Positions 5,321 through 55,107 of a stretch of 64,000 nucleotides of DNA are shown here, one piece after another (position 1 is the stretch's first letter; every line of letters begins with the position of its first letter). This stretch comes from an uncultured Bacteroidales bacterium. Lineage in GTDB: Bacteria; Bacteroidota; Bacteroidia; Bacteroidales; JAEINX01. Position numbers and translations under genes: made by a program. The DNA lies in assembly GCA_964462015.1 (NCBI GenBank), contig CAYWXI010000026.1, positions 233-64,232 of the forward strand. Direction: 5' to 3'. Below the pieces are notes generated by a model. That model was given only the letters and a program-made list of their open reading frames with translations. It was not told the origin of the DNA and made no database searches.

Positions 5321-5674
5321 ATGAATTTAGAAAAAACAAAAGCACAGATGAGGAAAGGAGTACTCGAACTTTGTATCCTTTCAATAATATCGGAAAGCGA
5401 TGTTTATGCTTCTGATATTATCAATAAATTAAAAGAATCGAAATTAATAGTTGTTGAGGGGACATTGTATCCGCTGCTGACAAGGCTGAAAAACGAAGGC
5501 TTTTTAAGTTATCGCTGGGAGGAGTCGAAATCAGGCCCGCCACGAAAATATTATCAAATAACTGAAATCGGGAAAAAGGTTCTTGAGGAACTTAATATGA
5601 ACTGGCAGGAACTTGTTGAAGCAGTTAATAATATAACCATTAAAGAAAATTCTGAAGTAGAAACAAATCAATAA
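5321..5674 (+). CDS. PadR family transcriptional regulator
   Basis: Sequence RKGVLELCILSIISESDVYASDIINKL...GTLYPLLTRLKNEGFLSYRWEES...PRKYYQITEIGK is the PadR winged helix. The ATG at 5321 is preferred over the track start at 5282. Confidence 0.85.
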   Translation: MNLEKTKAQMRKGVLELCILSIISESDVYASDIINKLKESKLIVVEGTLYPLLTRLKNEGFLSYRWEESKSGPPRKYYQITEIGKKVLEELNMNWQELVEAVNNITIKENSEVETNQ

Positions 5675-12835: not shown

Positions 12836-12883
12836 AGAAATTAGAAATTGGAAATTGGGTTTTCTTCCAAATTTCCAATTTCG
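12836..12883. repeat. GAAATT-word hairpin (family member 1)
   Basis: AGAAATTAGAAATTGGAAATTGGG-ttttctt-CCAAATTTCCAATTTCG. Confidence 0.6.
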
Positions 12884-15723: not shown

Positions 15724-15937
15724 TAAGTTCTTAAGAAATGAAAACCTTCTGTACGATACAAAGTAAATCCATAAAAATGGATGTATGCGTTTGGAGAGTA
15801 TTATAATAGTATTTCATAAAATATTATAAATACTTTTTGACTCATAACACATCATAATAGTAGTAGACCAAAATAATAATAGGCTTTGATAAACTTTTTT
15901 ATTTATATCTTCGTTTTATGAAATCGAAAGAATATCT

Positions 15938-17872
15938 ATGCCAAAAAGAGTAATTAATATACTATTGTTTATCATTGTTTTCATCGCAGGATTTAATGTA
16001 ATTGCCGATAATAATGATTCAATTGATGTTCATATTGATTCAATTAATGTTCATATTGATTCTTCGGCTATTTATTATTTTTATTCAAAACTTGATACTT
16101 CTGCGTTTTCGGAATTGCATCACATCGACACTTCTTTGATTGATTTTCAAGAAAAAGACAGAATCCAAATTGATGATAATTTTGTTTCAAGCCTCGGAAA
16201 TCTTGGTTTAGCTTCAGAAAACATTGTTTTCAAAATTAATAATGATCTAGGTTTTAACTTCGGAAATAATGCTTTCGATAATTATTTATTAACAAATAAT
16301 AAAGTCAAATATTATAAATTATACATTCCTTACACCGAATTATTCTATGAAATGGGTAAGAGGAAGGAACAATATTTCTCAGGCGTCCATAGTCAAAATC
16401 TGGCACAATATTTTAATGCAGGAATGTTTTTCAGGTTTATTCATTCTCCGGGATTATACACTCGTCAAAGAACTGATGATAAAAGTTTTGATATTAATAC
16501 AAGATTTCAAACAAAGAATGAAAGATACGGTGCCATAGTCAATTATGTTCATAATAAAATCGTCGTTGAAGAAAATGGTGGAATAAAATACGATTCTACT
16601 TTTGAACAAAATATTGAAACCGACAGGAGGTTAATAAAGGTTAATTTAGATGACGCTGAAAATCAGATAAAACAATCGGAATTTCTTTTTCAACAATATT
16701 TTTATATATCTGATAATTTATCAAAACTCAATGATTCAATTGAAAAAACAAGAAAAAGAAATCTATTTTCATTTGGAAAATTATCATATACATTCAGGTA
16801 TAAACGAAAATCAATTCTATATACCGAAGATTCACCATTAAATGATTTTTATCAAAAATATGATTTAGTTCTTGACTCAACTGCAACTTATGATTCCGTT
16901 GCAACTTCAAAGCTTGAAAATCAAATAATGTGGTCAAATGAAAATTTAAGAAATCTTAGTATCTATAAACCTTTTAATATTTATTTCGGTTTAAGACATG
17001 TAAAAATAAATTTATGGTCAGAAAACGAGCAAAATAATTATAATCAACTAATTTCTTTTGGAAACATTTCTTTTCTTGTTTTTAAGAGATTCAGACTAAG
17101 CACAGGAATGAATTATGTAGCCGGTGGTTATAACGATGGTGATTTTTCGTGGAAAGCAAAACTTGATAAAATTTTCTGGAGAGAAAAGAAACAAGTCGGA
17201 ACTTTGTCATTTACCTTGAATTATGTTTTGAAAGAACCCGGATGGTTTTTTGAACATTATTATTCTAATCATTTCAGATGGGAAAATAATTTTAACAAAC
17301 ATGGTTTTGGCTCTTTTGAAGCTTCTTTTAAAAAAAAGAATTTAAAAGCCGGAGTGGTTTTTAACAATCTGAAAAATTATGTTTATCTTGATACTATTGC
17401 GAGGCCTGCGCAATACGAAAAATCATTTAATGTTTTGAAAGCCTATATAAATAAATCATTTCTCTTCGGGAACTTTTATATTAAAAACACCTTATTGTAT
17501 CAAAATGTTTCTAACGAAAATGTCTTAAGATTGCCGAAGTTAGTTCTAAATACTACATTATCATATAATTTAAAATTGTTTAAAGGAGCTGCATATATTC
17601 AACCGGGACTTGATGTTTATTATAATACCGAATATTATGCCAATGCATATATGCCGGCCACAAGAAGTTTTTATTTGCAGAATGATATTAAAACCGGTAA
17701 TTATTTTTATGCTGACGCATTTATCAATGTAAAAATTCAGCGAACAAGATTTTTCCTAAAATACAGGCATTTTAATACTCATTTCTCAGGCTACCGTTAT
17801 TTCATGGTTCCTCATTATCCGATGCGTGATGCTGAAATAAAATTTGGTTTATCATGGATATTTCATGATTAA
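15938..17872 (+). CDS. Putative outer-membrane beta-barrel porin (large, Porin_10-like; assignment tentative)
   Basis: 644 aa with an N-terminal signal/anchor. It is Y/F/N-rich with an alternating pattern and a C-terminal ...IKFGLSWIFHD. Confidence 0.4.
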   Translation: MPKRVINILLFIIVFIAGFNVIADNNDSIDVHIDSINVHIDSSAIYYFYSKLDTSAFSELHHIDTSLIDFQEKDRIQIDDNFVSSLGNLGLASENIVFKINNDLGFNFGNNAFDNYLLTNNKVKYYKLYIPYTELFYEMGKRKEQYFSGVHSQNLAQYFNAGMFFRFIHSPGLYTRQRTDDKSFDINTRFQTKNERYGAIVNYVHNKIVVEENGGIKYDSTFEQNIETDRRLIKVNLDDAENQIKQSEFLFQQYFYISDNLSKLNDSIEKTRKRNLFSFGKLSYTFRYKRKSILYTEDSPLNDFYQKYDLVLDSTATYDSVATSKLENQIMWSNENLRNLSIYKPFNIYFGLRHVKINLWSENEQNNYNQLISFGNISFLVFKRFRLSTGMNYVAGGYNDGDFSWKAKLDKIFWREKKQVGTLSFTLNYVLKEPGWFFEHYYSNHFRWENNFNKHGFGSFEASFKKKNLKAGVVFNNLKNYVYLDTIARPAQYEKSFNVLKAYINKSFLFGNFYIKNTLLYQNVSNENVLRLPKLVLNTTLSYNLKLFKGAAYIQPGLDVYYNTEYYANAYMPATRSFYLQNDIKTGNYFYADAFINVKIQRTRFFLKYRHFNTHFSGYRYFMVPHYPMRDAEIKFGLSWIFHD

Positions 17873-18078
17873 TTTTGGCTCTCAGTCAGTAGTTTTCAGT
17901 CAACTGTCTTCAGTCAACTGTCTTCAGTCATCAGTCTTCAATCCATTACTCCATTACTCCATTAAATCCATCTGAAAATTCAAAATATTATTTATCTTAT
18001 TTCAATTACTTGTAATATAAAATTTCTATTTTTGCAAAATAATAGAGTAAATTTATTCATATTTAAATTAATAAAAAT

Positions 18079-18483
18079 ATGACAAACAGGTCTTCAAGGT
18101 TTTTTTCGACATCAATCACAAAGGATCAGGCAAAGGATAGTGGAATGGCTATTATGCTGATACTTATGTTAATTGGATTTTTTACAGAGAATGATTTATT
18201 TTACAAGATAGCAATACCTGTATTATTGATGAATATGATATACCCGATGTTTTATTATCCGTTTGCCATTTTTTGGTTTGGATTTGCAAATATGTTGGGT
18301 ACAATTGTTTCAAAAATATTGCTATCTGTTGTTTTTTTTATTATTGTTTTGCCGATAGCTTTACTAAGGCGATTGTTAGGAAAAGACTCTCTGTTATTAA
18401 AGAAATTTAAAAAATCCAATGAATCGGTCATGAAAACCCGTAACCAGACTTTCGTCGCTGCCGATTTGGAAAAACCATTTTAA
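18079..18483 (+). CDS. SxtJ-like small membrane protein
   Basis: 134 aa with 3-4 TM segments. Position immediately upstream of DUF5989 and a carbamoyltransferase matches the conserved SxtJ/DUF5989/carbamoyltransferase arrangement. Confidence 0.5.
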   Translation: MTNRSSRFFSTSITKDQAKDSGMAIMLILMLIGFFTENDLFYKIAIPVLLMNMIYPMFYYPFAIFWFGFANMLGTIVSKILLSVVFFIIVLPIALLRRLLGKDSLLLKKFKKSNESVMKTRNQTFVAADLEKPF

Positions 18484-18495
18484 AAAATATTTCAC

Positions 18496-18645
18496 ATGGA
18501 ATTTTTAAGAGATTTATGGGCATTTTTAAAAGTGCGTAAAAAATTCTGGCTATTGCCATTAATAATTGTTTTGTTAATATTCGGAGTTTTAATAGTTCTG
18601 ACAAGCGGCTCTGCTATTGCACCTTTCATTTACACCTTATTTTAA
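18496..18645 (+). CDS. DUF5989-like small membrane protein (49 aa, below the ORF-track cut-off)
   Basis: My translation is MEFLRDLWAFLKVRKKFWLLPLIIVLLIFGVLIVLTSGSAIAPFIYTLF*. It lies between the SxtJ-like gene and the carbamoyltransferase. Confidence 0.6.
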   Translation: MEFLRDLWAFLKVRKKFWLLPLIIVLLIFGVLIVLTSGSAIAPFIYTLF

Positions 18646-18746
18646 TGCTTAAATGATAGAATGCTTAAATGATAGAATGGGAAAATAACATTTATGCATT
18701 CAATCAATTTCAACAAAAAAACACAAACCATTAAAAACCACAACCT

Positions 18747-20606
18747 ATGCCGGAAGCAATCCTGGGAATATCAGCTTATTATCACGATAGCGCAGCAGCA
18801 ATTATTGTTGATGGAGAAATAATTGCAGCAGCTCACGAAGAACGTTTTACAAGAAAAAAACACGATTATTCTTTTCCTATAAATGCAGCAAAATATGTTC
18901 TTGAAGAATCAGGGATTGAATACGGTGATTTGCTTGCAATAGCTTTTTACGATAAACCATTGATAAAATTCGAGCGACTGCTTGAAACCTATCATGCCTT
19001 TGCACCAAAAGGTTTAAGAAGTTTTCTTTCGGCCATTCCGGTTTGGATAAAAGAGAAGCTTTTTATGAAAAAAATGTTGAGGGAAGAATTGCAAAAACTC
19101 GGAAAAGGAAACGTTCAGATATTATTTCCCGAACATCATCTATCGCATGCTGCCAGTGCATTCTATCCTTCACCCTTTGAAGAAGCTGCAATCCTAACAA
19201 TTGATGGCGTTGGCGAATGGGCTACTTCGACAATTTGCCATGGAAAAGGAAATAAAATTGAGATAAAAAAAGAACTCGACTTTCCCCATTCAATAGGATT
19301 ATTATATTCTACATTTACTTATTACACAGGCTTTAAAGTTAATAGCGGTGAATATAAATTAATGGGGCTGGCTCCTTACGGGAATCCCGATTCCAAACAG
19401 GTTCGTGAATATAAAGAAAAAATACTGAGTGAATTGGTTGACATTCGTGAGGATGGTTCAATACTTTTAAATATGAAGTATTTCAATTTTGCTACCGGCC
19501 TGAAAATGTCTAACGATAAAAAGTGGACAGAATTATTTGGTATTCCACCCAGATCGGAAGAATCCAAATTAACTCAGGATTATATGAATATGGCTTTAGC
19601 AATTCAGCAAATCACCGAGGATGTTGTTATTAAATTGGCCAAAACCGCAAAAGAACTTACCGGCAGTAAAAACCTTGTAATGGCAGGTGGAGTTGCTTTA
19701 AATAGTGTAGCAAACGGAAAATTGTTGGCAACCGGAATTTTTGATGATATTTGGATACAACCTGCTGCAGGAGATGCGGGTGGTGCACTTGGAGCGGCTT
19801 ATGCAGGCTGGTATATCTGGAAAGGAAAAGAACGCAAGGTCGATCCATCAACCGATTCGATGAAAGGAGCATATCTTGGCCCTGAATTCGGGAATGGTGA
19901 CATAAAAAAAGTTATAAGGAAATATAATGCAAAATATCAGTATTTTGAAGATTTCGATGATCTTACAAAAGTAGTTGCAAAACATATCGACGAAGGAAAA
20001 GTAATCGGGTGGTTCCAGGGAAGGATGGAGTACGGCCCGCGTGCTCTCGGAAATCGTAGTATTCTCGGCGATGCCCGAAGCCCGGAAATGCAGAAAAAGA
20101 TGAACCTGAAAATTAAATATCGTGAAGGATTCAGGCCTTTTGCTCCCACTGTTCTTGAAGAGGATATTCAGGAATATTTTGTTATGAATTGCCCATCTCC
20201 TTATATGTTACACGTTATTCCCGTTAAAGAAGACAGGCTTAAACCATTACCTGAAGGTTATAACGAATTGGAACTTTATGACAGATTATATCATCTTCGT
20301 TCCGATGTACCGGCAATTACGCATATTGATTTTTCAGCACGAATTCAGAGTGTTAAGCGCGAAACAAACCCAAGATACTGGAAGGTTATCAATGAATTTA
20401 AAAATCAGACCGGCTATGGTGTGATCGTAAATACAAGTTTTAATGTCAGGGGCGAACCCATTGTATGTACACCCGACGATGGCTTCCGTTGTTTTATGAG
20501 AACCGAAATGGATTATCTCGTTTTGGGTAATTATCTATTCGATAAAACGCAACAACAGGAGCTTACTCACGATTCTAATTGGAAAGAGGAGTTTAAATTG
20601 GATTAG
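18747..20606 (+). CDS. Carbamoyltransferase (NodU/CmcH family)
   Basis: 619 aa. Sequence ILGISAYYHDSAAAIIVDGEIIAAAHEERFTRKKHD...FPEHHLSHAASAF...MAGGVALNSVANG...NTSFNVRGEPIV. Confidence 0.9.
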   Translation: MPEAILGISAYYHDSAAAIIVDGEIIAAAHEERFTRKKHDYSFPINAAKYVLEESGIEYGDLLAIAFYDKPLIKFERLLETYHAFAPKGLRSFLSAIPVWIKEKLFMKKMLREELQKLGKGNVQILFPEHHLSHAASAFYPSPFEEAAILTIDGVGEWATSTICHGKGNKIEIKKELDFPHSIGLLYSTFTYYTGFKVNSGEYKLMGLAPYGNPDSKQVREYKEKILSELVDIREDGSILLNMKYFNFATGLKMSNDKKWTELFGIPPRSEESKLTQDYMNMALAIQQITEDVVIKLAKTAKELTGSKNLVMAGGVALNSVANGKLLATGIFDDIWIQPAAGDAGGALGAAYAGWYIWKGKERKVDPSTDSMKGAYLGPEFGNGDIKKVIRKYNAKYQYFEDFDDLTKVVAKHIDEGKVIGWFQGRMEYGPRALGNRSILGDARSPEMQKKMNLKIKYREGFRPFAPTVLEEDIQEYFVMNCPSPYMLHVIPVKEDRLKPLPEGYNELELYDRLYHLRSDVPAITHIDFSARIQSVKRETNPRYWKVINEFKNQTGYGVIVNTSFNVRGEPIVCTPDDGFRCFMRTEMDYLVLGNYLFDKTQQQELTHDSNWKEEFKLD

Positions 20607-20713
20607 TTCTACACTTTAATATTCTGGTTAAAGAATCTTTACAAATATTTTCATTAATATAAATTTTATTTCCTTTTCAATTTCTATTCATTTGTAAAAA
20701 ATCTAAAAATATC

Positions 20714-22004
20714 ATGAATAAATCCAATTCCCGAATAATAAACATCTCAATTTTTGTTTTTGTTTTGATATTAGGATTCATTATTGCAGAATATGCATTT
20801 CGTGCTATGTTATTTAGTGAGTATAAAGCATTTGATAATTTAAAAAATCCCGGTGATTATTGCAATTCGGATATTCATGAAGATTATTGGAAATTATTTT
20901 ATAAATTTAATGAAGAGTATAGACCACCGGAAAATCCTCATCCATTACTTGGTTGGAAGGGAGGTTTTCATCCTGAAAGTTATATTCATCATGCCTTTAG
21001 ATATTTAGGAAACAAGAAACCTGTTTTATTATTCGGCGATTCCTTTGCAAGATGTGTTGATCAATCGAAATGTTTTCAAGAAATTTTAAATAATGATGAT
21101 GAATTTACAAACGATAATTATTTGTTAAATTATGGTGTAGGTGGCTATGGTGTAGGACAAATTTCTTTGCTATCACAAAAAGTTATACCTCTTTTCAAAA
21201 ATCCTTTTGTGGTTTTCAGTCTTTTAACCTACGATCTTGATCGAAGTGTACTTTCGGTAAGAACCGGTCAAAAACCATATTATAAAATAGAAAATGACTC
21301 CCTAAAACTTTGTGGTATCCCTATAAACTCAAATCCAAAAGAGTTTTTTGATAGCAATCCGCCTGAAATTACATCATATTTATTTAATAAATTCTTATTC
21401 AGTAATTTGAACTTCCTTCCTAAAAATATAACTTCCTATCTTATAGGTGAAAAAGAGGATATAAAAAATAAAATTGAAGTAAATGAAAGTATTCTTCTTG
21501 ATGTTGTAAACAGATTAAAAAAAAAATAATATTGAATTTATTTTTGTAATATTTCATACACTAAAATGGGATATTGATAATTTTGGGAGTGAGGCAAAAA
21601 ATAACTGGAGAAATGTTTTTTTGAAGAATTTTTTAGAAAAACACAATATTCCATATATATGGACAATTGATTTAATTGAACAAGATACGCTTTATGATAA
21701 ATATGATATTCCTAAATACATTATTCCCGGTGACGGACACCCAACAACTTATTTCAATACGCTAATTGCAAATGAGATTAAACGTGCTGTTATTGAGGAT
21801 AATTATGAACACATTAAAATATTTAATAATACAGTTGAATATTACTCATACCAAATTAGAAAATCTGAAGAATGGTTGAACCTTGTCAGGAAAAAGGCTG
21901 AGGAAAGAAATATTAGTTTGGAAGAAATGATTAAAATTGATGCTAAATATTTGGTTAAGATTAATTCAAAAAAAACTGATACTAATGAAAACATGATTAA
22001 ATGA
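20714..22004 (+). pseudogene. SGNH/GDSL-like hydrolase split by a frameshift in an A10 tract (track ORFs 20714-21529 and 21621-22004)
   Basis: The N-terminal part has LLFGDSFARC (block I) and GVGGYGVGQ. After A10 (21517-21526) the other frame is open from 21519 and reads NNIEFIFVIFH...PGDGHPT (block V DxxH-like). A run of A9 would fuse the two frames. Confidence 0.55.
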
Positions 22005-22425
22005 TAAAATACTTAAATACAATATCTTCCCTAACGGTTTAATCTTTGATAATAAATGAACTGAACATTACAATATTTGATTTATTCATTTTGCGTATTA
22101 TGTTATTTTCACATTTTAGCCACAAAGTATCAGCGATTTTCTATCAATAAATTAATTTAAGATTATATCTGTTTATTTATAAATTTACAATTTTCTTAAT
22201 GATCCTGAAAAGGTTTGAATAAGTATAGTTGAGAAAAAGAAAGAAGAATATCAAAATAGTCTGTTTCCAAAAATATTAGGGGCTTACTTCTGATGTTTGA
22301 ACAAACAGATGCTGATTATCTGATGAAAAAATAAGATATTCATCGTAAAATAAATTTAACCGGATAATAATAAATATCATTTTTTATTTTATTCCCCTTT
22401 GTACCGATTTATTAAGGACTTAGAC

Positions 22426-22635
22426 TTGGGGATTGTCTTCATCCCCTTGGGGATATTGTCTATCCCCCTGGGGATATTGTCTATCCCACTGGGGATAATG
22501 TTCATCCCCCTGGGGATAATATCCGTCCCCCTGGGGATAATGTCCGTCCCCTTGGGGATATTGTTCATCCCCTTGGGGATAATGTCCGTCCCCTTGGGGA
22601 TAATGTCTGTCCCCTTGGGGATATTGATGATCCCC
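22426..22635. repeat. Tandem array of ten exact-period 21-bp units, each carrying a GGGGAT..ATCCCC-type inverted repeat
   Basis: Units are YTGGGGATAWTGTYYRTCCCC. Units 2 and 3 are GGGGATA-TTGTC-TATCCC(C/A). The array is intergenic between convergent genes and has no spacers. Confidence 0.9.
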
Positions 22636-22717
22636 CAATATGTAATGATAGAATGAGTGAATGATAGAATGATAGAATAGTGCTTTTATTCAATCATTTA
22701 AGCATTCATTCATTCTA

Positions 22718-23998
22718 TCATTGTTTGTTAATGAATAATAATTTATTGAATTGAGAAGAAATGTTCTCATAATTTATGTTGTAGAAATAAATTCCATTTG
22801 TTACAGGATTTCCATTCCAATCCCTGCCATCCCATTGCTGTGATTTTTTTCCAGCAATGTTGTATTGCCTGATGATTCTTCCCTGCATATTGTAAATATT
22901 TAATACAGGGGTTTTAAAATCACCTGGTAATGTAAATGCTATTGTTGTTTCATTCGAAAAAGGATTAGGATAATTGTAGGTTATAAAATTGGAGTTATTT
23001 TTATTCTCATGTATTGACACTGTTGAATTAATACTTTTATACAATGGGGTTGGTGAATTATTTTTGTTTACATACAGGTGTTCTTCCGGTCCTAAAATAA
23101 TGTCTTCAATATCATAGTTGCACATAGTTTCTAAGGAAATGTCTTCCCATGTTTGTCCATTATCCATCGAACGGCGCACCCCTCCCCAGTAAAAATCAAG
23201 CATTGAACAAGCGATATATATTTCATCTTGCGAATTAATAACCATTGAGGTTACTAATTCCTCATTATTTAAATTCATCCACTCCGATTGCCCATTCTGT
23301 AAAATATATACTCCCCCTGAATAAAGATAGTGATGTCCCCTTGTTCCTGCAAACAGATCGCCTGAAGAGTTTAAAGCTAATGAAGAAACATAATGATTGG
23401 TTAAACCAAAATGCTCCCATGTATCACCTCCATCTTCAGAAAGGTAAACACCTCCTCCACCGATGAAATTGATAGTGCCTGCATACAATTTCCCTGTATT
23501 AGCATCCTCAATTATAGCACTAACTACCTCCGTATTTCCAAGAGATAAAACTTGTACCCAATTTGAACCAATAGTATCAGTTTTATAAATTCCACCCCAC
23601 TTCCCAAAAATAATTGAATTATCTGAATTTCTTAAAACACTGTTAATTCCAAGCCCTTGGACATTGAATATCAGACTCCAACTTATACCATTATTATCAG
23701 AAAAATAAAGACGATCAGATGCTGCAAAAACATTGTCTGATTTATCAATATAGATTTTTCCAATAACATCATTATTAAAAAAAAGAGAAGTATCCCATGA
23801 GTTCAAATTGTTTAAGTTTCGAAGAACACCTCCTCCGGGTGAAAAGGGAACAGCAATAAATATATCTCCATTTGAATTTACTTCAATTGAATAAATGTCT
23901 ATTTCTAGTGGAGTATTAATAATTTCCCAATAATCCTGGCTGTTTACAATGTTTGTGTTTAGTATTAGAACTGTAAAAATTAGTATTAGCTTTTTCAT
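22718..23998 (-). CDS. Secreted beta-propeller (BNR/sialidase-fold-like) protein with a T9SS C-terminal sorting domain
   Basis: Has a signal peptide and repeated S.D.G..W-like motifs. The C-terminus YPNPFSNETTIAFTL...LNIYNMQGRII...NGIYFY is a type A T9SS CTD. Confidence 0.7.
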   Translation of the reverse strand: MKKLILIFTVLILNTNIVNSQDYWEIINTPLEIDIYSIEVNSNGDIFIAVPFSPGGGVLRNLNNLNSWDTSLFFNNDVIGKIYIDKSDNVFAASDRLYFSDNNGISWSLIFNVQGLGINSVLRNSDNSIIFGKWGGIYKTDTIGSNWVQVLSLGNTEVVSAIIEDANTGKLYAGTINFIGGGGVYLSEDGGDTWEHFGLTNHYVSSLALNSSGDLFAGTRGHHYLYSGGVYILQNGQSEWMNLNNEELVTSMVINSQDEIYIACSMLDFYWGGVRRSMDNGQTWEDISLETMCNYDIEDIILGPEEHLYVNKNNSPTPLYKSINSTVSIHENKNNSNFITYNYPNPFSNETTIAFTLPGDFKTPVLNIYNMQGRIIRQYNIAGKKSQQWDGRDWNGNPVTNGIYFYNINYENISSQFNKLLFINKQ

Positions 23999-24199
23999 TA
24001 TTAAAAGTTTTGTGTATTACTTTATTTTTGCAATACCATTTTTTTAAATGTGTGAATACTGCCGGCAGAAAGTTCGTAATATTAAATACCTGTTGGCAAT
24101 TCTTTAGAATTAAACTTTAATGATAGTCTAATCTCCATATATTGAAGAATTGAACATCTTTTATTTTAATATTTTTCATTTTCTGCATTATGTTTGATA

Positions 24200-24278
24200 G
24201 TCACGGTGTGAATTGTTATTTTAAAGTGCAAATTTAATTATTACAACTTCCTGTTTCATGAGTTATTCACACCGTGAC
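24200..24278. repeat. Hairpin with a 14-bp perfect stem and ~51-nt loop
   Basis: GTCACGGTGTGAAT (24200-24213) and ATTCACACCGTGAC (24265-24278), just downstream of the minus-strand stop at 24297. Confidence 0.6.
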
Positions 24279-24296
24279 TTGCCAAAAAATTATTCC

Positions 24297-25543
24297 TCAT
24301 TCCTTTGTCATTTTCATTGCCTGTATTCCCCCTCCTTCAGTTTTATAATTAATTAAATCACCATTTATGGTATAAGGGAATATTTTAAAATAATAAACTG
24401 TTGCCGGTATTAAGTTTGTAAAAGTACATTTCTCTACTCCATAAGGAATGTTTTTTGCTGTGTCACTATCAGATACAGCAACATTATCAATAGGTATTTC
24501 AATAGCTTCAAAGCTTATATCACTCATAAGTACTAAATTGGCATGAGGTAAAATCCCGTTTACAGGATCATTCCATTGCAGCTCAATATTATGTGCCGAG
24601 AAATTCTCAGGGTAATTGCTTGGTTGTGGGGATGGAGCACCATGGAAATAAGTAGTGAAAGTTTCCCCGTAATCAGAACTATAATCAATATATATAAAGG
24701 AATACTGTGTTGCATAATCATAAGTTGAGCGTTTTACAAAAAACGAGCCGGGTTGTCGTCCGGCAGTATATTGTACACCCCAATTATAAATATCGATATA
24801 CCAAGATTCAAACTTTTCCGTCCAGGTATAGCCGGTATCAGCGCTATGGAATATCTTATAATGATAATCGGGCCACCAGGAAACAAGGTAAAGTTCACCC
24901 TCTTCCGTTCCCCTGCTAATTTGAGGATATTGTCCACTTACCGACCAAAAGGCGACTGAACTGTCAATTGGGATTTCAGTATAGGTGTTTGCATAATCTA
25001 ATGAGTGATAAAGATAAAAACCTTCTCCCGCATTACCATCAATACCATAAAACTCACCATCTAAATATCCTATGTCTGAAATAGGACAATTTGGCGGGTC
25101 AGAAACAACTTCAAAAGTTAGTGCATAATCATTACTTTTATGCAATAATCCCCAACCTCCTTTATAAATTACACCTTCAAAGCCCCCCCCCAATATCTGG
25201 TATAACTTATAAAATTCTCTCTAAAGTCCCAATTCACACCATAATCAAAACTCACCCAAAGCTCATTATTACCATAGTTATATAATGCTCCGGGGGTGGC
25301 ATCTCCCAAAACTTTTCCAATTCCCATTGCTCCCCCTGTAGGAGGATCTGTTGCTTCATATTGTACAGTAAGTGTTTCTCCATTATCAGCAGAACGGAAA
25401 ATTGCTTTATGGATAATTCCGTTTTCAGTAAACCAATGGTTGTTGATATAGATTTCACCGGGTGTAGCTCCTCTTGTTATCTGGGCTTGTGGGATGCTGC
25501 CAAGCAGGCAGCATAAAATTAGAAGTAAAATTGTTTTTTTCAT
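24297..25543 (-). pseudogene. Secreted beta-propeller/FN3-like protein split by a frameshift in a G9 tract (C9 on + strand, 25183-25191)
   Basis: The N-terminal ORF 25169-25543 has a signal peptide and ends ...SYTRYWGGALKV*. The C-terminal ORF 24297-25193 begins at the same run as (L)GGGFEGVIYKGGWG. A run of G10 would give ...RYWGGGFEGVIY... in one frame. Confidence 0.55.
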
Positions 25544-25894
25544 GGTTTAATAAATTTAGTTTAGTGAAAACTTAGTGTCATTTTTGTTCACTTATTTAAA
25601 TTTTTAAACAAACATTATATTTTCTTAAAAAAACTTTGATTGTTCGATCAAATAATTTCTATTTCTCTTGAAAATACTCGCCTTTATTGTATTCTATCGA
25701 CAATCAGTACAAAGTTAAATCAATATTTTTAATATTTCCAAGAAAGATATAAAAAATATTTATTTATGAAAAATCATTAAACATTCAACACTCAACATTC
25801 AATTTTCAACGACTAAAGGGAGTCACGAAACAAAGTAAGTCCATCCATACGTACTCCTTTTAGTCGTATAGATGGATTTTCAATTCCCGCTTTT

Positions 25895-26746
25895 TTACTT
25901 TATTCCTCTTTGTTTTTTAATCTCTTCATAAGCAGCATTTAATTTCTGAAACTTTTCTTTGGCTGCGGTTTTTATGTCTTCACCAAGATGAGCAACTTTA
26001 TCGGGATGGAATTTTACTGCCATTTTATGATAAGATTTTTTAATTTCATCATCGCCTGATTCGGGAGAGGTTTCAAGAATTTTGTAGGCACTATCAATAT
26101 CTTTTACAAACATTGCTTTAATTGAATCATAATCATTATGGCTTATTCCAAGGTATGAACTGATTAAGTCAATTGTATCAACCTCCTGTGAATGATATTG
26201 TCCATCGGCAGAGGAAATTCCAAAAAGAAAATGAAGTAATTGCAATCGTGCGGGATAATCCATATATTGCTTGATTTGCAAACTAACTTCCTGAACATTT
26301 ATTTCCTGCTTCAGTATTTCTCTCAATAATTTAATTTTTTGTTGAGCTTCGTAAGCGCCGAACTGGCGGATGAAAAGTTGCTTAACATATTCTAATTCCG
26401 AACGCATAATACGGCCATCGGCTTTCATAATTGCAGCCGAAAGAATTAATAAACTAATACTGAAATCACCTGACTGTGTTGGTTTGTACTCGTACTTCCC
26501 TGTTTGCATCCCATCGTACATCGAACCGAAAGCAAAACCCATGATCGCTCCGATAGGCCCTCCAAAGGCCCATCCCAGCCCCCCTCCTATCCATTTTCCA
26601 TATGATTTCTTAGTTTGGGCTTGAGTCGAATTAGGTTCAGAAGAATTTCCAGATCCCTCGTAAGGATGCTGTTTTTGCTTTTTATTTATGTTCATTGCAA
26701 AATAAACAATAATACCGATTACTAAGATAATTATAATGAATGTCAT
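25895..26746 (-). CDS. DjlA-like membrane co-chaperone (TM + TerB-like domain + C-terminal J domain)
   Basis: The J domain reads YKILETSPESGDDEIKKSYHKMAVKFHPDK. The central region is TerB-like (AAIMKADGRIMRSELEYV) and there are N-terminal TM and Gly-rich segments. Confidence 0.7.
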   Translation of the reverse strand: MTFIIIILVIGIIVYFAMNINKKQKQHPYEGSGNSSEPNSTQAQTKKSYGKWIGGGLGWAFGGPIGAIMGFAFGSMYDGMQTGKYEYKPTQSGDFSISLLILSAAIMKADGRIMRSELEYVKQLFIRQFGAYEAQQKIKLLREILKQEINVQEVSLQIKQYMDYPARLQLLHFLFGISSADGQYHSQEVDTIDLISSYLGISHNDYDSIKAMFVKDIDSAYKILETSPESGDDEIKKSYHKMAVKFHPDKVAHLGEDIKTAAKEKFQKLNAAYEEIKKQRGIK

Positions 26747-33232: not shown

Positions 33233-33277
33233 GGGAAATTAGAAATTTGGCACTCTTCCTAATTTCTAATTTCTAAC
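33233..33277. repeat. GAAATT-word hairpin (family member 2), abutting the batD stop codon
   Basis: GGGAAATTAGAAATTTGG-cactctt-CCTAATTTCTAATTTCTAAC. The right arm ends 1-2 nt from the minus-strand TGA at 33279-33281. Confidence 0.6.
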
Positions 33278-35207: not shown

Positions 35208-36032
35208 TTACCAATCCTTTTCAATTTTTACTCTTTGTGCTTTTGCGGCTTTTGCTTTTTTAAGCTTTTCAAGAGTTTCTTTTTCACCATTTTTTAAGGC
35301 CTGAAGCATACGCTCGGCATCCTTTTTTGAAATCTCCTTTGGTTTAGGTTGCTGTTTTTGTTGATCTTGTTTATCTTGTTTATCTTGTTCCTGTTTTTGT
35401 TGATCCTGATTTTGCTCCTGTTTGTCTTTATTTTCGTCTTGTTTATCTTCGTTTTTCTCTTGTTGGTCCTTATTTTGATCTTGTTTATCCTGATTTTGTT
35501 CTTTTTCGTCTTTATTCTGATCTTGCTTATCCTTATTTTCGTCTTGCTTGTCCTTATCTTGCTGGTCTTTATTATCCTTATTTTGATCTTGTTGTTGCTG
35601 TTGCTTTTTCAGCAATTGTTTTGCATATTCAAGATTATACTTTGTTTCTTTATCTTTGGGATTATTTCTAAGCGCATTTTTATAAGCTTCAATACTTTCT
35701 TCAATTTTCTGCTGGTCTAATAATGAATTTCCAAGATTATGATAAGCATCTGCTTTAACTTTTTTACTTAGATTTTTTGAAGCAATATCGTTAAACAATT
35801 TTGAAGCTTCTTCATAATTTTTTTGTTCATATAAAGCATCAGCAAGATTAAAGTTTCCTTTGAATGACTTTGGAGCAACCTCCAATGATTTCCGGTATTC
35901 AATTTCAGCTTCCGGATATTTTTTTTCTTCGAATAACTTATTTCCTTCACGAATTAAGGAATTTTCGTTTTGTGAGAATCCATTAATCGAAAACAAGAGA
36001 ATTATTGAAAAAATTGTTAGTATGTTTTTCAT
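35208..36032 (-). CDS. batC: BatC-like TPR protein with a long K/Q/D/E low-complexity region
   Basis: Has a signal peptide and TPR repeats, followed by QQQQQDQNKDNKDQQDKDKQDENKDKQ.... Confidence 0.65.
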   Translation of the reverse strand: MKNILTIFSIILLFSINGFSQNENSLIREGNKLFEEKKYPEAEIEYRKSLEVAPKSFKGNFNLADALYEQKNYEEASKLFNDIASKNLSKKVKADAYHNLGNSLLDQQKIEESIEAYKNALRNNPKDKETKYNLEYAKQLLKKQQQQQDQNKDNKDQQDKDKQDENKDKQDQNKDEKEQNQDKQDQNKDQQEKNEDKQDENKDKQEQNQDQQKQEQDKQDKQDQQKQQPKPKEISKKDAERMLQALKNGEKETLEKLKKAKAAKAQRVKIEKDW

Positions 36033-36161: not shown

Positions 36162-36224
36162 GAAATTGGAAATTAGAAATTGGAAATTCTGTTGCTCCTG
36201 AATTTCCAATTTCTAATTTCCAAC
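36162..36224. repeat. GAAATT-word hairpin (family member 3) with a 24-bp perfect stem, abutting the batB stop codon
   Basis: TTGGAAATTAGAAATTGGAAATTC (36166-36189), 10-nt loop, GAATTTCCAATTTCTAATTTCCAA (36200-36223). The batB stop codon is at 36225-36227. No U-tract follows on either strand. Confidence 0.85.
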
Positions 36225-37256
36225 TTATCTATCAAATAATTTAATCTTCATCATTAATTTACTTTTCTTTTCATAAATCAAGAACTCAATTATTAAAAAC
36301 AATATTGCAACAGCGAGAAAATACTGAAACCTGTCTTCATAATCGGAAAACATCTTACTTTCGTACTCGGTTTTTTCAAGTTTATTGATTTCTTTAAATA
36401 TTTTTACCAGGCCTGCCTGAGAATTATTTGCCCTTACATAGCTACCGTTTCCTGCGACTGCAATTTGCTGAAGCATTGATTCATTTAATTTTGTAATAAT
36501 GGTTTGATTTTTATTATCTTTCTTAAAACCAACTTGTTTATCATATTTATTATAAATTGGGATTGGACCTCCGTCGGGCAAACCCATTCCTATTGTGTAA
36601 ATTGATATTCCCAGTTCGGCTGCAGCTTGGGCTTCTTCCATTGCATTCCCTTCATGGTTTTCACCATCGGTGATAATAATTATGGCTTTGCTATGGTCAT
36701 TGTCATCAAATGAGCCGACAGCAAGCTGAATTGCATCGCCAATTGCAGTTCCCTGAACAGGAACAATATCAGGTGTAATTGTCGATAAAAACAATTTTGC
36801 AGCAGCATAATCGGTAGTGATTGGTAGCTGGATAAAAGCTTTACCGGCAAATACAATTATTCCTATCCTGTCATTATTTAGTTTGTCGATAAGATTAGAT
36901 ACCGCATGCCTTGCACTTTCAAGCCTGCTTGGCTTTATATCCTGAGCAAGCATGCTGTTTGAAACATCAATAGCAATAACAATATCAATTCCTTTTCTTT
37001 CAATTTTTTCCAATTTTGAACCTATTTGAGGATTTGCAAGAGCCAGAATCAGGAAGGTATAAGCAAACATCATCAGTACAAATTTCAAAACAGGTTTGCT
37101 TTTTGAAGTAAATGGAATCAGTTGCTTTAAAATTGAAATCTCACCGAATTTTTTTATAGTTTTTTTCTTCCAGGCTAGCATCAAACTGAATAACAGAACA
37201 AAAACAGGAATTAAAAATAATCCGTAAAGAAAATATATGTGTTCAAATCTTATCAT
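36225..37256 (-). CDS. batB: VWA domain-containing protein BatB
   Basis: N-terminal TM segments, a VWA MIDAS motif (DVSNSM) and a C-terminal TM segment. Confidence 0.8.
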   Translation of the reverse strand: MIRFEHIYFLYGLFLIPVFVLLFSLMLAWKKKTIKKFGEISILKQLIPFTSKSKPVLKFVLMMFAYTFLILALANPQIGSKLEKIERKGIDIVIAIDVSNSMLAQDIKPSRLESARHAVSNLIDKLNNDRIGIIVFAGKAFIQLPITTDYAAAKLFLSTITPDIVPVQGTAIGDAIQLAVGSFDDNDHSKAIIIITDGENHEGNAMEEAQAAAELGISIYTIGMGLPDGGPIPIYNKYDKQVGFKKDNKNQTIITKLNESMLQQIAVAGNGSYVRANNSQAGLVKIFKEINKLEKTEYESKMFSDYEDRFQYFLAVAILFLIIEFLIYEKKSKLMMKIKLFDR

Positions 37257-55007: not shown

Positions 55008-55107
55008 AGATTTTCCTTTTATTCAAATAATTAGTTGTTTTCTAAAGAATGGTTAAATTGTTATATTGTAATAAAAACAACAATATAACAATTTAACCAT
55101 TTAGCAA

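What the first reader, a model, noticed from the sequence alone, without database searches (positions are those of the whole stretch)
22426..22635. Ten head-to-tail 21-bp repeats, each a small palindrome, in a convergent intergenic region
The consensus unit YTGGGGATAWTGTYYRTCCCC repeats ten times with an exact 21-bp period and no spacers.

- Internal structure: each unit contains an inverted repeat GGGGA(TA)...(TA)TCCCC. Units 2-3 read GGGGATA-TTGTC-TATCCC(C/A). Unit junctions create CCCC(T/C)TGGGG.
- Spacing: 21 bp is two helical turns, so all sites face the same side of the helix. This is the layout of iterons, centromere-like (parC/sopC-type) arrays and cooperative operator arrays.
- Base composition: the G4/C4 tracts are conspicuous in this AT-rich genome.
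- Context: an AT-rich ~400-bp stretch lies immediately upstream (22005-22400). No rep or par gene is nearby, so the binding partner is unknown.
Basis: seen in the sequence. Interest (0 to 1): 0.6.

Follow-up and report, generated by a model that had tools for sequence, protein, structure and literature searches.

The report
Orphaned non-coding 21-bp tandem repeat
The ten 21-bp repeats are real and are a non-coding chromosomal minisatellite, not a plasmid-type origin or centromere; in related bacteria the same kind of array always sits just behind a small unannotated gene that this locus lacks.

Summary
In detail: window 22426-22635 holds ten head-to-tail 21-bp units with no indels, found nowhere else in the window.

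The iteron/centromere reading is not supported. The locus is chromosomal (Bacteroidales), has no rep or par gene, and matches no plasmid or phage.

The array is part of a conserved module: a terminator-like AATG hairpin (22642-22724), a degenerate first unit, then the array. The module is about 80-93% identical in two related Bacteroidales genomes. There it directly follows a ~106-aa all-helical orphan gene. A 21-nt-period tract follows homologs of that gene in all five lineages examined where the downstream sequence was available, including an Elusimicrobiota MAG and Ca. Electrothrix.

In this window the neighbourhood is orthologous but the small gene is missing, so the array is an orphan copy. 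It lies inside a rearranged 5.3-kb segment that is absent from the closest relative's orthologous locus.

Coding is unlikely:
- No reading frame is open with a start codon in all seven arrays.
- Variation between units shows no 3-base periodicity; a real coding heptad repeat in the same window does.
- The peptide has no homologs.

Function is unproven. My best guess is a helically phased array of binding sites or stem-loops tied to the small protein. The gene-array linkage appears undescribed in the literature I searched.

The parts
22426..22635 (.). Ten head-to-tail 21-bp units. On the - strand the unit reads CCCCARGGGGA plus about 8 variable bases plus AT. The core is the near-palindrome ATCCCC-AA-GGGGA(T).
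22617..22640 (-). Leader, which is a degenerate first unit (TATTGGGGGATCATCAATATCCCC). It is conserved in L005 (3 mismatches) and matches the L131-L140 version with 2 mismatches. It overlaps the last + strand unit.
22642..22724 (.). Long, stable AATG/CATT hairpin that starts 8 nt after the stop codon of the 426-aa gene. It is terminator-like. Its core AATGCTTAAATGATTGAATAAAAG is identical in L005 and L131-L140.
22718..23998 (-). 426-aa BNR/propeller protein with a type IX secretion (T9SS) C-terminal sorting domain. It occupies the position directly upstream of the hairpin that the 106-aa small gene holds in relatives.
22005..22425 (.). AT-rich stretch with no ORF on the tail side of the array. 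It has no homology to the tails of the related arrays. It holds one weak Bacteroidetes-type promoter-like match (TTTG-N19-TAGACTTG, 22398-22428, + strand).
24187..24281 (-). IR96, a conserved non-coding inverted repeat (AGTCACGGTGTGAAT...ATTCACACCGTGACT). It is also present upstream in the orthologous loci L005 and L131 and marks the shared neighbourhood.
20606..25895 (.). 5.3-kb segment containing the array. It is absent from the orthologous carbamoyltransferase / TerB-DnaJ junction of the closest relative, MAG15.

Best explanation
The array is a chromosomal, non-coding minisatellite. Each 21-bp unit has a near-palindromic core (ATCCCC-AA-GGGGA on the - strand) followed by about 8 freely varying bases.

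It belongs to a family of 21-nt-period arrays. In other genomes these lie immediately downstream of a conserved ~106-aa all-helical orphan gene, usually separated from it by a terminator-like hairpin.

In this window the hairpin, leader and array are retained, but the small gene is absent. The module sits behind a T9SS cargo gene, inside a rearranged, lineage-specific 5.3-kb segment. It is therefore an orphaned copy.

Shown here:
- family membership;
- orthology of the neighbourhood and absence of the small gene;
- unit turnover with retention of the core and the period (concerted evolution);
- lack of coding signatures.

Inferred:
- New units arise and are homogenised by slippage or unequal exchange.
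- The array works as a helically phased platform (21 bp is two turns). It would be either a row of palindromic protein-binding sites or a row of short GC stem-loops.
- The genetically linked small helical protein is the most obvious candidate partner.
- In this window the array either acts with a partner encoded elsewhere or is a relic.
For: Module conservation. The hairpin and leader align at roughly 80-93% identity with L005 (Bacteroidales MAG15) and with L131-L140. The arrays align unit for unit, with the core kept and the variable block replaced. The edge units of one array match the dominant unit of the other at 19-20 of 21 positions.

Linkage to the small gene. The L005 and L075 proteins are homologous (E = 1e-17), and the family has 54 members across phyla. 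A 21-bp array or a significant 21/42-nt periodicity lies just downstream of the gene in L005, L075, L123, L127, L128 and L131-L140. The loci fetched through the protein (L123, L127, L128, L131-L140) did not depend on the core sequence.

Orthologous neighbourhood without the small gene. The window's 124-aa and 298-aa ORFs match L131's 424-aa gene. The window's 426-aa gene matches L131's 133-aa and 221-aa ORFs. IR96, the hairpin and the array are all shared. tblastn finds no small-gene homolog anywhere in the window.

Indel relative to MAG15.

Non-coding signatures:
- No frame is open with a start codon in all seven arrays.
- Variation between units is contiguous at positions 12-19 and flat over the three codon phases (28/21/28). 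A real coding heptad repeat in the same window gives 18/0/23.
- Synonymous fractions are 14-35% in every frame.
- The peptide has no homolog among 5.8 billion proteins and no Pfam match.
- In L127 the centre of the palindrome varies in length and one unit is 20 nt, which shifts the frame.

Stability. The array is identical, at 10.5 copies, in eight full-length assemblies from different samples; a ninth (L139) differs only slightly in TRF score and a tenth (L138) is cut by the contig end.
Against: - No binding protein, transcript or phenotype has been shown; the function is inference.
- The palindrome is not universal. L123 keeps ATCCCC but has GGTACT in place of GGGGA. That weakens both the palindromic-operator and the hairpin readings for the family as a whole.
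- Array orientation relative to the small gene differs between subfamilies: L005 and L133 one way, L075 and L123 the other.
- Several loci were found with a pattern that required the core, so core conservation among those is partly circular.
- The period is always a multiple of three, and long open frames cross the decayed tracts in L128 (130 codons) and L127 (about 92 codons). That keeps a coding reading alive.
- Whether the window's genome encodes the small protein elsewhere is unknown.
Confidence: 0.55

Rival explanations
1. The array is translated into a small heptad-repeat peptide: (YPQGDxx)n or (IPKGxxx)n on the - strand, or (PLGIxxx)n / (HPLGDxx)n on the + strand. It would possibly be co-expressed with the small helical protein in relatives.
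For: The period is 21 nt (7 codons) in every lineage. Four or five of the six frames are open through each array. Gene callers predict ORFs there: 64 aa in L131 and 82 aa in L129. Core variants in L133, L007 and L075 are silent in the IPKG frame. A 130-codon open frame crosses the decayed tract in L128 at 49% GC.
Against: - Every frame is broken in at least one family member: PQGD has 2 stops in L133; IPKG has 4 stops in L123 and no start in L007; PLGI has 2 stops in L123; HPLGD has 1 stop in L075.
- The ATG and TTG 'starts' are by-products of the unit sequence.
- Polymorphism shows no 3-periodicity, while the coding control does.
- In every frame most variants (65-86%) are non-synonymous.
- There are no homologs and no Pfam match.
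- A terminator-like hairpin sits about 20 nt upstream, with no promoter-like motif in 250 nt upstream in any of six arrays.
Confidence: 0.15
2. One reading: iterons of a replication origin, or a parC/sopC-type centromere, bound by a Rep or Par protein.
For: Ten direct repeats at two helical turns. An adjacent AT-rich 400 bp. The window's units contain TGGGGATAA, an 8 of 9 match to the DnaA box TGTGGATAA (my reading of the sequence against the established consensus).
Against: - The flanks are chromosomal and syntenic with MAG15.
- There is no rep, par or dnaA gene nearby.
- There is no similar sequence in plasmid or phage collections.
- Genes converge on the site, and GC skew follows gene strand only.
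- The DnaA-box resemblance is absent from the units of L005, L007, L075 and L133.
- The closest relative lacks the array at this locus but carries arrays at other loci.
Confidence: 0.03
3. The array acts at the RNA level. It could be a run of ten short GC stem-loops in a 3' untranslated region or a read-through transcript, protecting against exonucleases or aiding termination for the convergent genes. Alternatively it could be an independent small RNA that sequesters an RNA-binding protein, bounded by the AATG hairpin as terminator.
For: - Either strand folds far better than shuffles (z = -9.6 and -10.4).
- Each unit can form a 5-6 bp hairpin of about -7 to -12 kcal/mol.
- Arrays begin about 40-190 nt after a stop codon in every locus where the flank is available.
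- On the + strand the junction reads CCCC-UU-GGGG, the context of the stable CUUG tetraloop (established RNA-structure knowledge).
- A Bacteroidetes-type promoter-like motif ends at the array's first bases on the + strand.
Against: - Rfam has no match.
- The promoter-like motif is common by chance (0.38 per kb per strand) and is not conserved in relatives.
- The stems show no compensatory changes. They are simply invariant, or broken as in L123 and L133.
- The array lies beyond a terminator-like hairpin, so sense transcription may be low.
Confidence: 0.15
4. The array is a functionless, self-propagating minisatellite or a MITE-like mobile repeat of the BrickBuilt kind. It would persist by slippage and recombination rather than by selection.
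For: - Classic minisatellite turnover between orthologous arrays.
- The array lies in a rearranged indel region.
- At least two arrays occur at different loci in MAG15.
- Other tandem repeats sit next to it: 8-bp repeats, and a 14-bp array in L005.
- BrickBuilt is a precedent in the same phylum (PMC4596501).
Against: - There are no terminal inverted repeats and no conserved tail.
- Linkage to one small gene family persists across phyla, and the 21-nt periodicity survives even where unit sequence has decayed to about 40% self-identity. Neutral decay does not predict that.
- The array is invariant in eight or more samples, so it is not hypervariable.
Confidence: 0.12

Closest known systems
BrickBuilt minisatellite/MITE of Porphyromonas gingivalis (Klein et al. 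2015, PMC4596501)
   Same: Same phylum. Strictly intergenic. Spacer-less tandem direct repeats of about 20 nt (23 nt in BrickBuilt). A conserved non-repetitive leader next to the repeats. More than one copy per genome. Imperfect units. Gene callers place hypothetical ORFs in it.
   Different: BrickBuilt has terminal inverted repeats related to IS elements, a conserved tail, 19 copies per genome, and measured promoter activity. Here no TIRs or tail were found and only two copies were seen in one MAG. The period is 21 rather than 23, the units are palindromic, and the array is linked to a specific small gene. I could not compare sequences with the BrickBuilt unit.
Iterons and centromere-like repeat arrays (R6K gamma ori, P1 incA, R1 parC, F sopC, omega-binding heptads of pSM19035)
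   Same: Direct repeats in helical phase, some with internal inverted repeats. A small gene is linked to the array in relatives, much as centromere-binding protein genes lie beside their sites.
   Different: The context is chromosomal. There is no Rep, ParA/ParM or ParB/ParR gene and no plasmid or phage relatives. The linked protein has no detectable similarity to known centromere-binding or Rep proteins.
REP/BIME extragenic palindromes
   Same: Short GC-rich imperfect palindromes in intergenic regions just after stop codons, often clustered. They are proposed to act in termination, mRNA stability and protein binding.
   Different: REPs carry a GTAG or CGTC tag, are arranged in alternating orientation rather than head to tail with an exact period, occur in hundreds of copies, and are associated with RAYT transposases. 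None of these features is seen here.
Type III toxin-antitoxin loci (ToxIN and relatives)
   Same: A tandem array of short direct repeats is separated by a terminator hairpin from a small linked protein gene, and the pair travels together between genomes.
   Different: In ToxIN the 36-nt repeats lie upstream of the toxin gene and the toxin is a ToxN/AbiQ endoribonuclease. Here the order is gene, hairpin, repeats. The protein is an all-helical orphan with no PADLOC match above noise. In the window the gene is absent altogether.

Membership tests
Plasmid/phage iterons (replication origin) | Located on a plasmid or phage replicon, next to a rep gene | tested here: not met
   The flanks are chromosomal and syntenic with MAG15. 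The neighbours are a porin, a carbamoyltransferase, a T9SS protein and TerB-DnaJ. There is no hit in plasmids or phages.
Plasmid/phage iterons (replication origin) | Direct repeats of 17-22 bp in helical phase beside an AT-rich region | tested here: met
   Ten 21-bp units, with an AT-rich stretch at 22005-22425.
Chromosomal origin (oriC) | Conserved DnaA boxes, divergent gene orientation, GC-skew minimum | tested here: not met
   The 8 of 9 DnaA-box resemblance occurs only in the window's units, not in related arrays. Genes converge on the site. Skew tracks gene strand only.
Centromere-like arrays (parC, sopC, parH) | Adjacent partition ATPase and centromere-binding protein genes | tested here: not met
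   No such genes within several kb. Relatives have one linked small gene, but no ATPase.
BrickBuilt-type MITE with internal minisatellite | Spacer-less intergenic tandem repeats with a conserved leader | tested here: met
BrickBuilt-type MITE with internal minisatellite | Terminal inverted repeats and a conserved tail | tested here: not met
   The best inverted match between the module's two ends falls below the shuffled null in three loci, and the tails do not align.
BrickBuilt-type MITE with internal minisatellite | Many dispersed copies per genome | tested here: inconclusive
   Two arrays in MAG15 (L001, L005) and one in the 64-kb window. The rest of the window's genome was not available.
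REP/BIME | GTAG or CGTC tag; alternating orientation; high copy number; RAYT transposase | tested here: not met
   The units lack the tag and are all head to tail. There is a single site in the window. I did not search for a RAYT gene specifically.
Protein-coding heptad repeat | One reading frame open, with a start codon, in all orthologs | tested here: not met
   Frame table for seven arrays.
Protein-coding heptad repeat | 3-base periodicity of variation and an excess of synonymous change | tested here: not met
   Flat 28/21/28 over the three phases; synonymous fraction 14-35% in every frame. The positive control in the same window gives 18/0/23.
Type III toxin-antitoxin | Repeats upstream of a ToxN/AbiQ-family endoribonuclease gene | tested here: not met
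   The order is gene, hairpin, repeats in relatives. The protein is helical, with no significant PADLOC, Pfam or PDB match. The gene is absent from the window.
CRISPR array | Repeats separated by unique spacers | tested here: not met
   Units abut without spacers and the period is 21 bp.
Known RNA families (Rfam 15) | Match at the gathering threshold | tested here: not met
   Only sub-threshold miRNA-like hits on the long hairpin.
21-nt-period arrays downstream of the ~106-aa helical orphan gene (family defined here) | 21-bp period with the (A)TCCCC motif, homologous units, and in Bacteroidales the AATG hairpin plus leader | tested here: met
21-nt-period arrays downstream of the ~106-aa helical orphan gene (family defined here) | The small gene lies immediately upstream | tested here: not met
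   The gene is absent from the window. The orthologous neighbourhoods L131 and L005 have it exactly where the window has none. Hence 'orphan copy'.

The most novel reading that the evidence does not exclude
The ~106-aa all-helical orphan protein and the 21-nt-period array just downstream of its gene form a previously undescribed two-part system spread across bacterial phyla. The protein would bind the phased repeats, as DNA or as RNA, for example as a self-contained nucleoprotein or ribonucleoprotein module or a new protein-plus-repeat-RNA pair. The window's array would be a partner-less copy that still recruits the protein in trans or is decaying.
Probability: 0.25. Interest if true: 0.7.

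Novelty: new variant of a known kind. Interest (0 to 1): 0.42.

Why it matters
For this window alone, the result is mostly a clarification. The striking repeat is not an origin or a centromere, and annotators should not call a gene in it.

The wider point is the linkage found along the way. An unannotated, confidently folded small helical protein is followed by a 21-nt-period repeat tract in Bacteroidales, an Elusimicrobiota MAG, Ca. Electrothrix and one unnamed lineage. The period persists even where the unit sequence has decayed.

That pattern suggests a functional protein-repeat pair that neither my literature searches nor the family libraries turned up. It is directly testable by binding assays. 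The window offers a natural "array without partner" variant for comparison.

Tried and rejected
- Collection scans. A scan for three CCCCAAGGGGA cores with variable gaps found 105 stretches in the metagenome collection (80 listed in the output; all 105 were stored and analysed), with periods of 18-36 and GC of 0.32-0.72. Most are unrelated tandem repeats that merely contain the 11-mer; one is a real collagen-like gene. I did not treat them as family. The same pattern found nothing in viral contigs.
- L004 and the non-Bacteroidia hits of the genome scan: L004 proved to be a single-site coding match; the others were single matches I did not pursue.
- Peptide search. (YPQGDxx)n against 5.8 billion proteins gave no significant hit. 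Low-complexity filtering limits that negative.
- Strain comparison at the window's own locus. The 426-aa protein is not on record. Contigs from the same organism break at the array, so copy-number variation could not be measured for this organism.
- DnaA-box idea. Rejected because relatives lack the resemblance.
- Promoters. The Bacteroidetes-type promoter on the + strand is a weak match and is not conserved. The sigma-70 scan is no better than shuffles.
- P0126 look-up failed.
- P0130 contigs (L124-L126), from the same sequencing project, end 112 nt after the gene with no array in view. Their periodicity test is negative over that short stretch, so that locus is unresolved.
- Terminal inverted repeats and conserved tail: none.

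Full report
**1.

Window 22426-22635 contains ten head-to-tail 21-bp units without indels (period 21, 10.0 copies, 85% matches). Self-identity at lag 21 is 0.85, against a shuffled 95% maximum of 0.37.

The invariant columns are TGGGGAT..T.....TCCC, with the final C varying in one unit. The variable columns form one central block. The array lies between a + strand ORF ending at 22004 and a - strand gene ending at 22718.

A short-read contig from an independent run is 100% identical to window 15825-22456 and stops 31 nt into the array. The array's edge is therefore real, although the copy number could not be cross-checked.

**2. The context is chromosomal and Bacteroidales.**

The neighbours are a Porin_10 porin, an SxtJ-like protein, a carbamoyltransferase, a type IX secretion (T9SS) BNR/propeller protein, a TerB-DnaJ protein and saccharopine dehydrogenase. 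There is no rep, par or dnaA gene. GC skew simply follows gene strand.

The closest relative on record is Bacteroidales MAG15 (GCA_016342645.1). Its carbamoyltransferase is 95% identical in protein and about 88% in DNA. At MAG15's orthologous locus the carbamoyltransferase gene is followed after 9 bp by the TerB-DnaJ gene. Window 20606-25895, 5.3 kb with the array in the middle, is absent there.

The region matches no plasmid or phage record.

**3. The array is one part of a larger conserved module.**

Read on the - strand, the 426-aa gene's stop is followed 8 nt later by a very stable long hairpin built from AATG/CATT repeats (22642-22724). A roughly 20-nt leader follows, which is really a degenerate first unit. 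The array follows that.

Long hairpins made of 7-8-nt tandem motifs recur right after stop codons elsewhere in the window. The hairpin is therefore probably this lineage's usual terminator-like 3' element.

The same hairpin, leader and array occur in MAG15 (L005) and in a third Bacteroidales species (L131-L140). The hairpin core is identical in all three, and the leader differs by 2-3 bases.

The arrays align unit for unit. The core CCCCARGGGGA is kept while the 8-10-nt variable block has been replaced. The last unit of the window's array is 20/21 identical to L005's dominant unit. L005's first full unit is 19/21 identical to a window unit. That is the signature of minisatellite turnover from a common ancestral array.

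In the third species the array is identical, at 10.5 copies, in eight full-length assemblies from different samples. A ninth (L139) differs only slightly in TRF score, and a tenth (L138) is cut by the contig end. It is therefore not hypervariable.

**4. The array is linked to a small gene that this window lacks.**

In L005 and L131-L140 the hairpin directly follows a 106-aa gene. A homologous 119-aa gene (33% identity, E = 1e-17) lies 48 nt from another 21-bp array in L075. That array's unit is 18/21 identical to the window's.

A profile search found 54 homologs. Named sources include an Elusimicrobiota MAG, Ca. Electrothrix, Ca. Electronema and Edwardsbacteria, and one Electrothrix genome carries at least two copies.

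I fetched loci through the protein, so these did not depend on any repeat sequence. The region just downstream of the gene shows:
- L123 (Elusimicrobiota MAG): a clear 21-bp array.
- L127: degenerate but significant 21/42-nt periodicity, including a unit 19/21 identical to a window unit.
- L128 (Ca. Electrothrix): degenerate but significant 21/42-nt periodicity, including a unit about 17/21 identical to a window unit.

Control regions show no such periodicity.

The window's neighbourhood is orthologous to L131's:
- The window's 124-aa and 298-aa ORFs together match L131's 424-aa gene (67-73% identity).
- The window's 426-aa gene matches L131's 133-aa and 221-aa ORFs.
- The IR96 element, the hairpin and the array are all shared.

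The small gene, which in L131 and L005 sits exactly between the upstream gene and the hairpin, is missing. It has no homolog anywhere in the window. The window's array is therefore an orphaned copy in a rearranged segment.

**5. Is it coding?**

Several frames run open through the array, because the unit has few stop-forming triplets. Openness alone therefore means little. The evidence runs against coding:

- Frame conservation. Across seven arrays no frame is both open and supplied with a start codon. PQGD has two TAA stops in L133. IPKG has four stops in L123 and no start in Geofilum (L007). The antisense PLGI frame has two stops in L123. The antisense HPLGD frame has one stop in L075 and lacks a start in four arrays. 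The ATG and TTG codons are by-products of GGGGATG and CCTTGG.
- Pattern of variation. Variation between units occupies a contiguous block (positions 12-19) and is flat over the three codon phases (28/21/28). Synonymous fractions are 14-35% in all frames.
- Positive control. The same test on a real coding heptad repeat in this window, (KQDQNKD)n at 35397-35593, gives 18/0/23.
- Frame shifts. In L127 the centre of the inverted repeat varies in length and one unit is 20 nt, which shifts the frame.
- No homologs. The peptide has no significant match among 5.8 billion proteins and no Pfam match.
- No promoter. The terminator-like hairpin sits about 20 nt upstream, and no promoter-like motif lies within 250 nt upstream in any of six arrays.

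Against this stand three points. The period is always a multiple of three. Core variants in three arrays are silent in the IPKG frame. Long open frames cross the decayed tracts in L128 and L127. I put translation at about 15%.

**6. What does it do?**

This is inference. What is conserved is a GC-rich motif, (A)TCCCC, usually as the near-palindrome ATCCCC-AA-GGGGA(T). It recurs every 21 nt, which is two helical turns, next to one particular small gene. The period survives even where unit identity has fallen to about 40%. Neutral decay does not predict that, so some constraint on phase seems likely.

The small protein is confidently predicted as all-helical. It has one 57-residue helix and a basic C-terminus (pLDDT 95.8). 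It has no significant match in Pfam, PHROGs, NCBIfam, PADLOC, PDB sequences or PDB folds.

The simplest model is that the array is a phased platform of binding sites or stem-loops for a protein, with the linked small protein as the obvious candidate. The window's copy would either work in trans or be a relic.

The two structural readings cannot be separated in a tandem array, because each implies the other. One is an intra-unit hairpin, GGGGA...TCCCC. The other is the junction palindrome, TCCCC-AA-GGGGA. No compensatory changes were seen.

L123 has lost the GGGGA half entirely, which cautions against leaning on the palindrome. Rfam has no match. A Bacteroidetes-type promoter-like motif abutting the array on the + strand is a weak, unconserved match.

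**7. Comparison with known systems.**

- BrickBuilt. The closest described thing in the same phylum is the BrickBuilt minisatellite/MITE of Porphyromonas gingivalis. It has spacer-less 23-nt intergenic repeats with a leader and a tail, terminal inverted repeats, 19 copies per genome, and promoter activity (PMC4596501). The present element shares the spacer-less intergenic array and a conserved leader. It has no terminal inverted repeats and no conserved tail, so I do not file it as a member.
- Iterons and centromeres. The element resembles them only in having phased direct repeats. The defining replicon context and partner genes were tested and are absent.
- REP/BIME. The element lacks the tag, the alternating orientation and the high copy number.
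- Type III toxin-antitoxin loci. These share the repeats, terminator and small gene, but in the opposite order and with an unrelated protein.

**8. Verdict.**

The iteron/centromere interpretation is not supported. The non-coding premise is supported.

For the window itself the finding is an ordinary, if handsome, minisatellite in a rearranged chromosomal segment. The more interesting result is the cross-phylum linkage between an orphan helical protein and a 21-nt-period tract. I could not find it described, and it is directly testable.

Caveats:
- Several related loci were found with core-containing search patterns, so core conservation among those is partly circular.
- No control scan with scrambled cores was possible.
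- No expression or binding data exist.
- The rest of this organism's genome was not available.

Noticed in passing
window 35397-35593 (inside ORF 35208-36032, - strand): A second 21-bp-period repeat in the window is a real coding heptad repeat, (KQDQNKD)n, in a 274-aa protein. Its variation avoids second codon positions completely (18/0/23). I used it as a positive control.
   Followed up: partly
window 24187-24281; also L005 1772-1866 and L131 30-120: A conserved non-coding element of about 96 nt with a perfect 15-bp inverted repeat (AGTCACGGTGTGAAT...ATTCACACCGTGACT). It follows a stop codon in the window and in L005, and it is 84-88% identical across three Bacteroidales genomes. Its function is unknown.
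   Followed up: partly
window 24297-25543 (- strand): The overlapping 124-aa and 298-aa ORFs together match a single 424-aa gene in L131, so they look like a split or frameshifted gene. Reciprocally, L131's 133-aa and 221-aa ORFs look like a split version of the window's 426-aa T9SS gene.
   Followed up: partly
window 20606-25895: This 5.3-kb segment is absent from the orthologous carbamoyltransferase / TerB-DnaJ junction of the closest relative, MAG15. Its 271-aa and 127-aa ORFs have no Pfam family and no homolog in the relatives' loci.
   Followed up: partly
window 36163-36226, 33235-33273, 12844-12882, 55048-55101, 18644-18686, 25775-25810: Intergenic elements made of 7-8-nt tandem motifs, mostly just after stop codons. 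Four are long hairpins: GAAATTG/CAATTTC at 36163-36226, 33235-33273 and 12844-12882, and AATGGTTAAATTG at 55048-55101. The other two are tandem-motif tracts: AATGCTTAAATGATAG at 18644-18686 and CATTCAA at 25775-25810. They are probably this lineage's terminator-like elements.
   Followed up: partly
L005 2770-2910: In MAG15 a 14-bp tandem array (GAACAAGGAACATC, about 10 copies) directly follows the 21-bp array. The window has no counterpart.
   Followed up: no
L009-L113 (metagenome scan): Large, apparently unrelated families of tandem arrays share the 11-mer CCCCAAGGGGA. One has a 27-bp period in high-GC contigs (about 45 loci). Another has a 33-bp unit, CCCCAAGGGGATATGGCAACCCCCCTATAATCC, in at least 13 contigs of one assembly (CAJHXH01), mostly at contig ends.
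   Followed up: partly
L123 about 5373-5440: Between the small gene and its array, the Elusimicrobiota MAG locus has a 14-bp-stem hairpin (CAGTAGCCTACCCC-TTAA-GGGGTAGGCTACTG). The hairpin's apex resembles the array core. A window-like unit, GGGGATAATGAAAAGTAACCCC, follows the stop codon directly.
   Followed up: no
L124-L126 (runs SRR24302412, SRR24302413 and SRR24302424; the first two also hold the window's organism): A 106-aa homolog of the small protein (P0130, 74.5% identical to the MAG15 protein) lies on three contigs that all end exactly 112 nt after its stop codon, as contigs do at a repeat. Whether an array follows, and whether this is the window's organism, is unresolved.
   Followed up: partly
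window 49390-49720: 72-bp tandem repeats inside the 740-aa ORF 47715-49937 (- strand), presumably a repeated protein domain.
   Followed up: no
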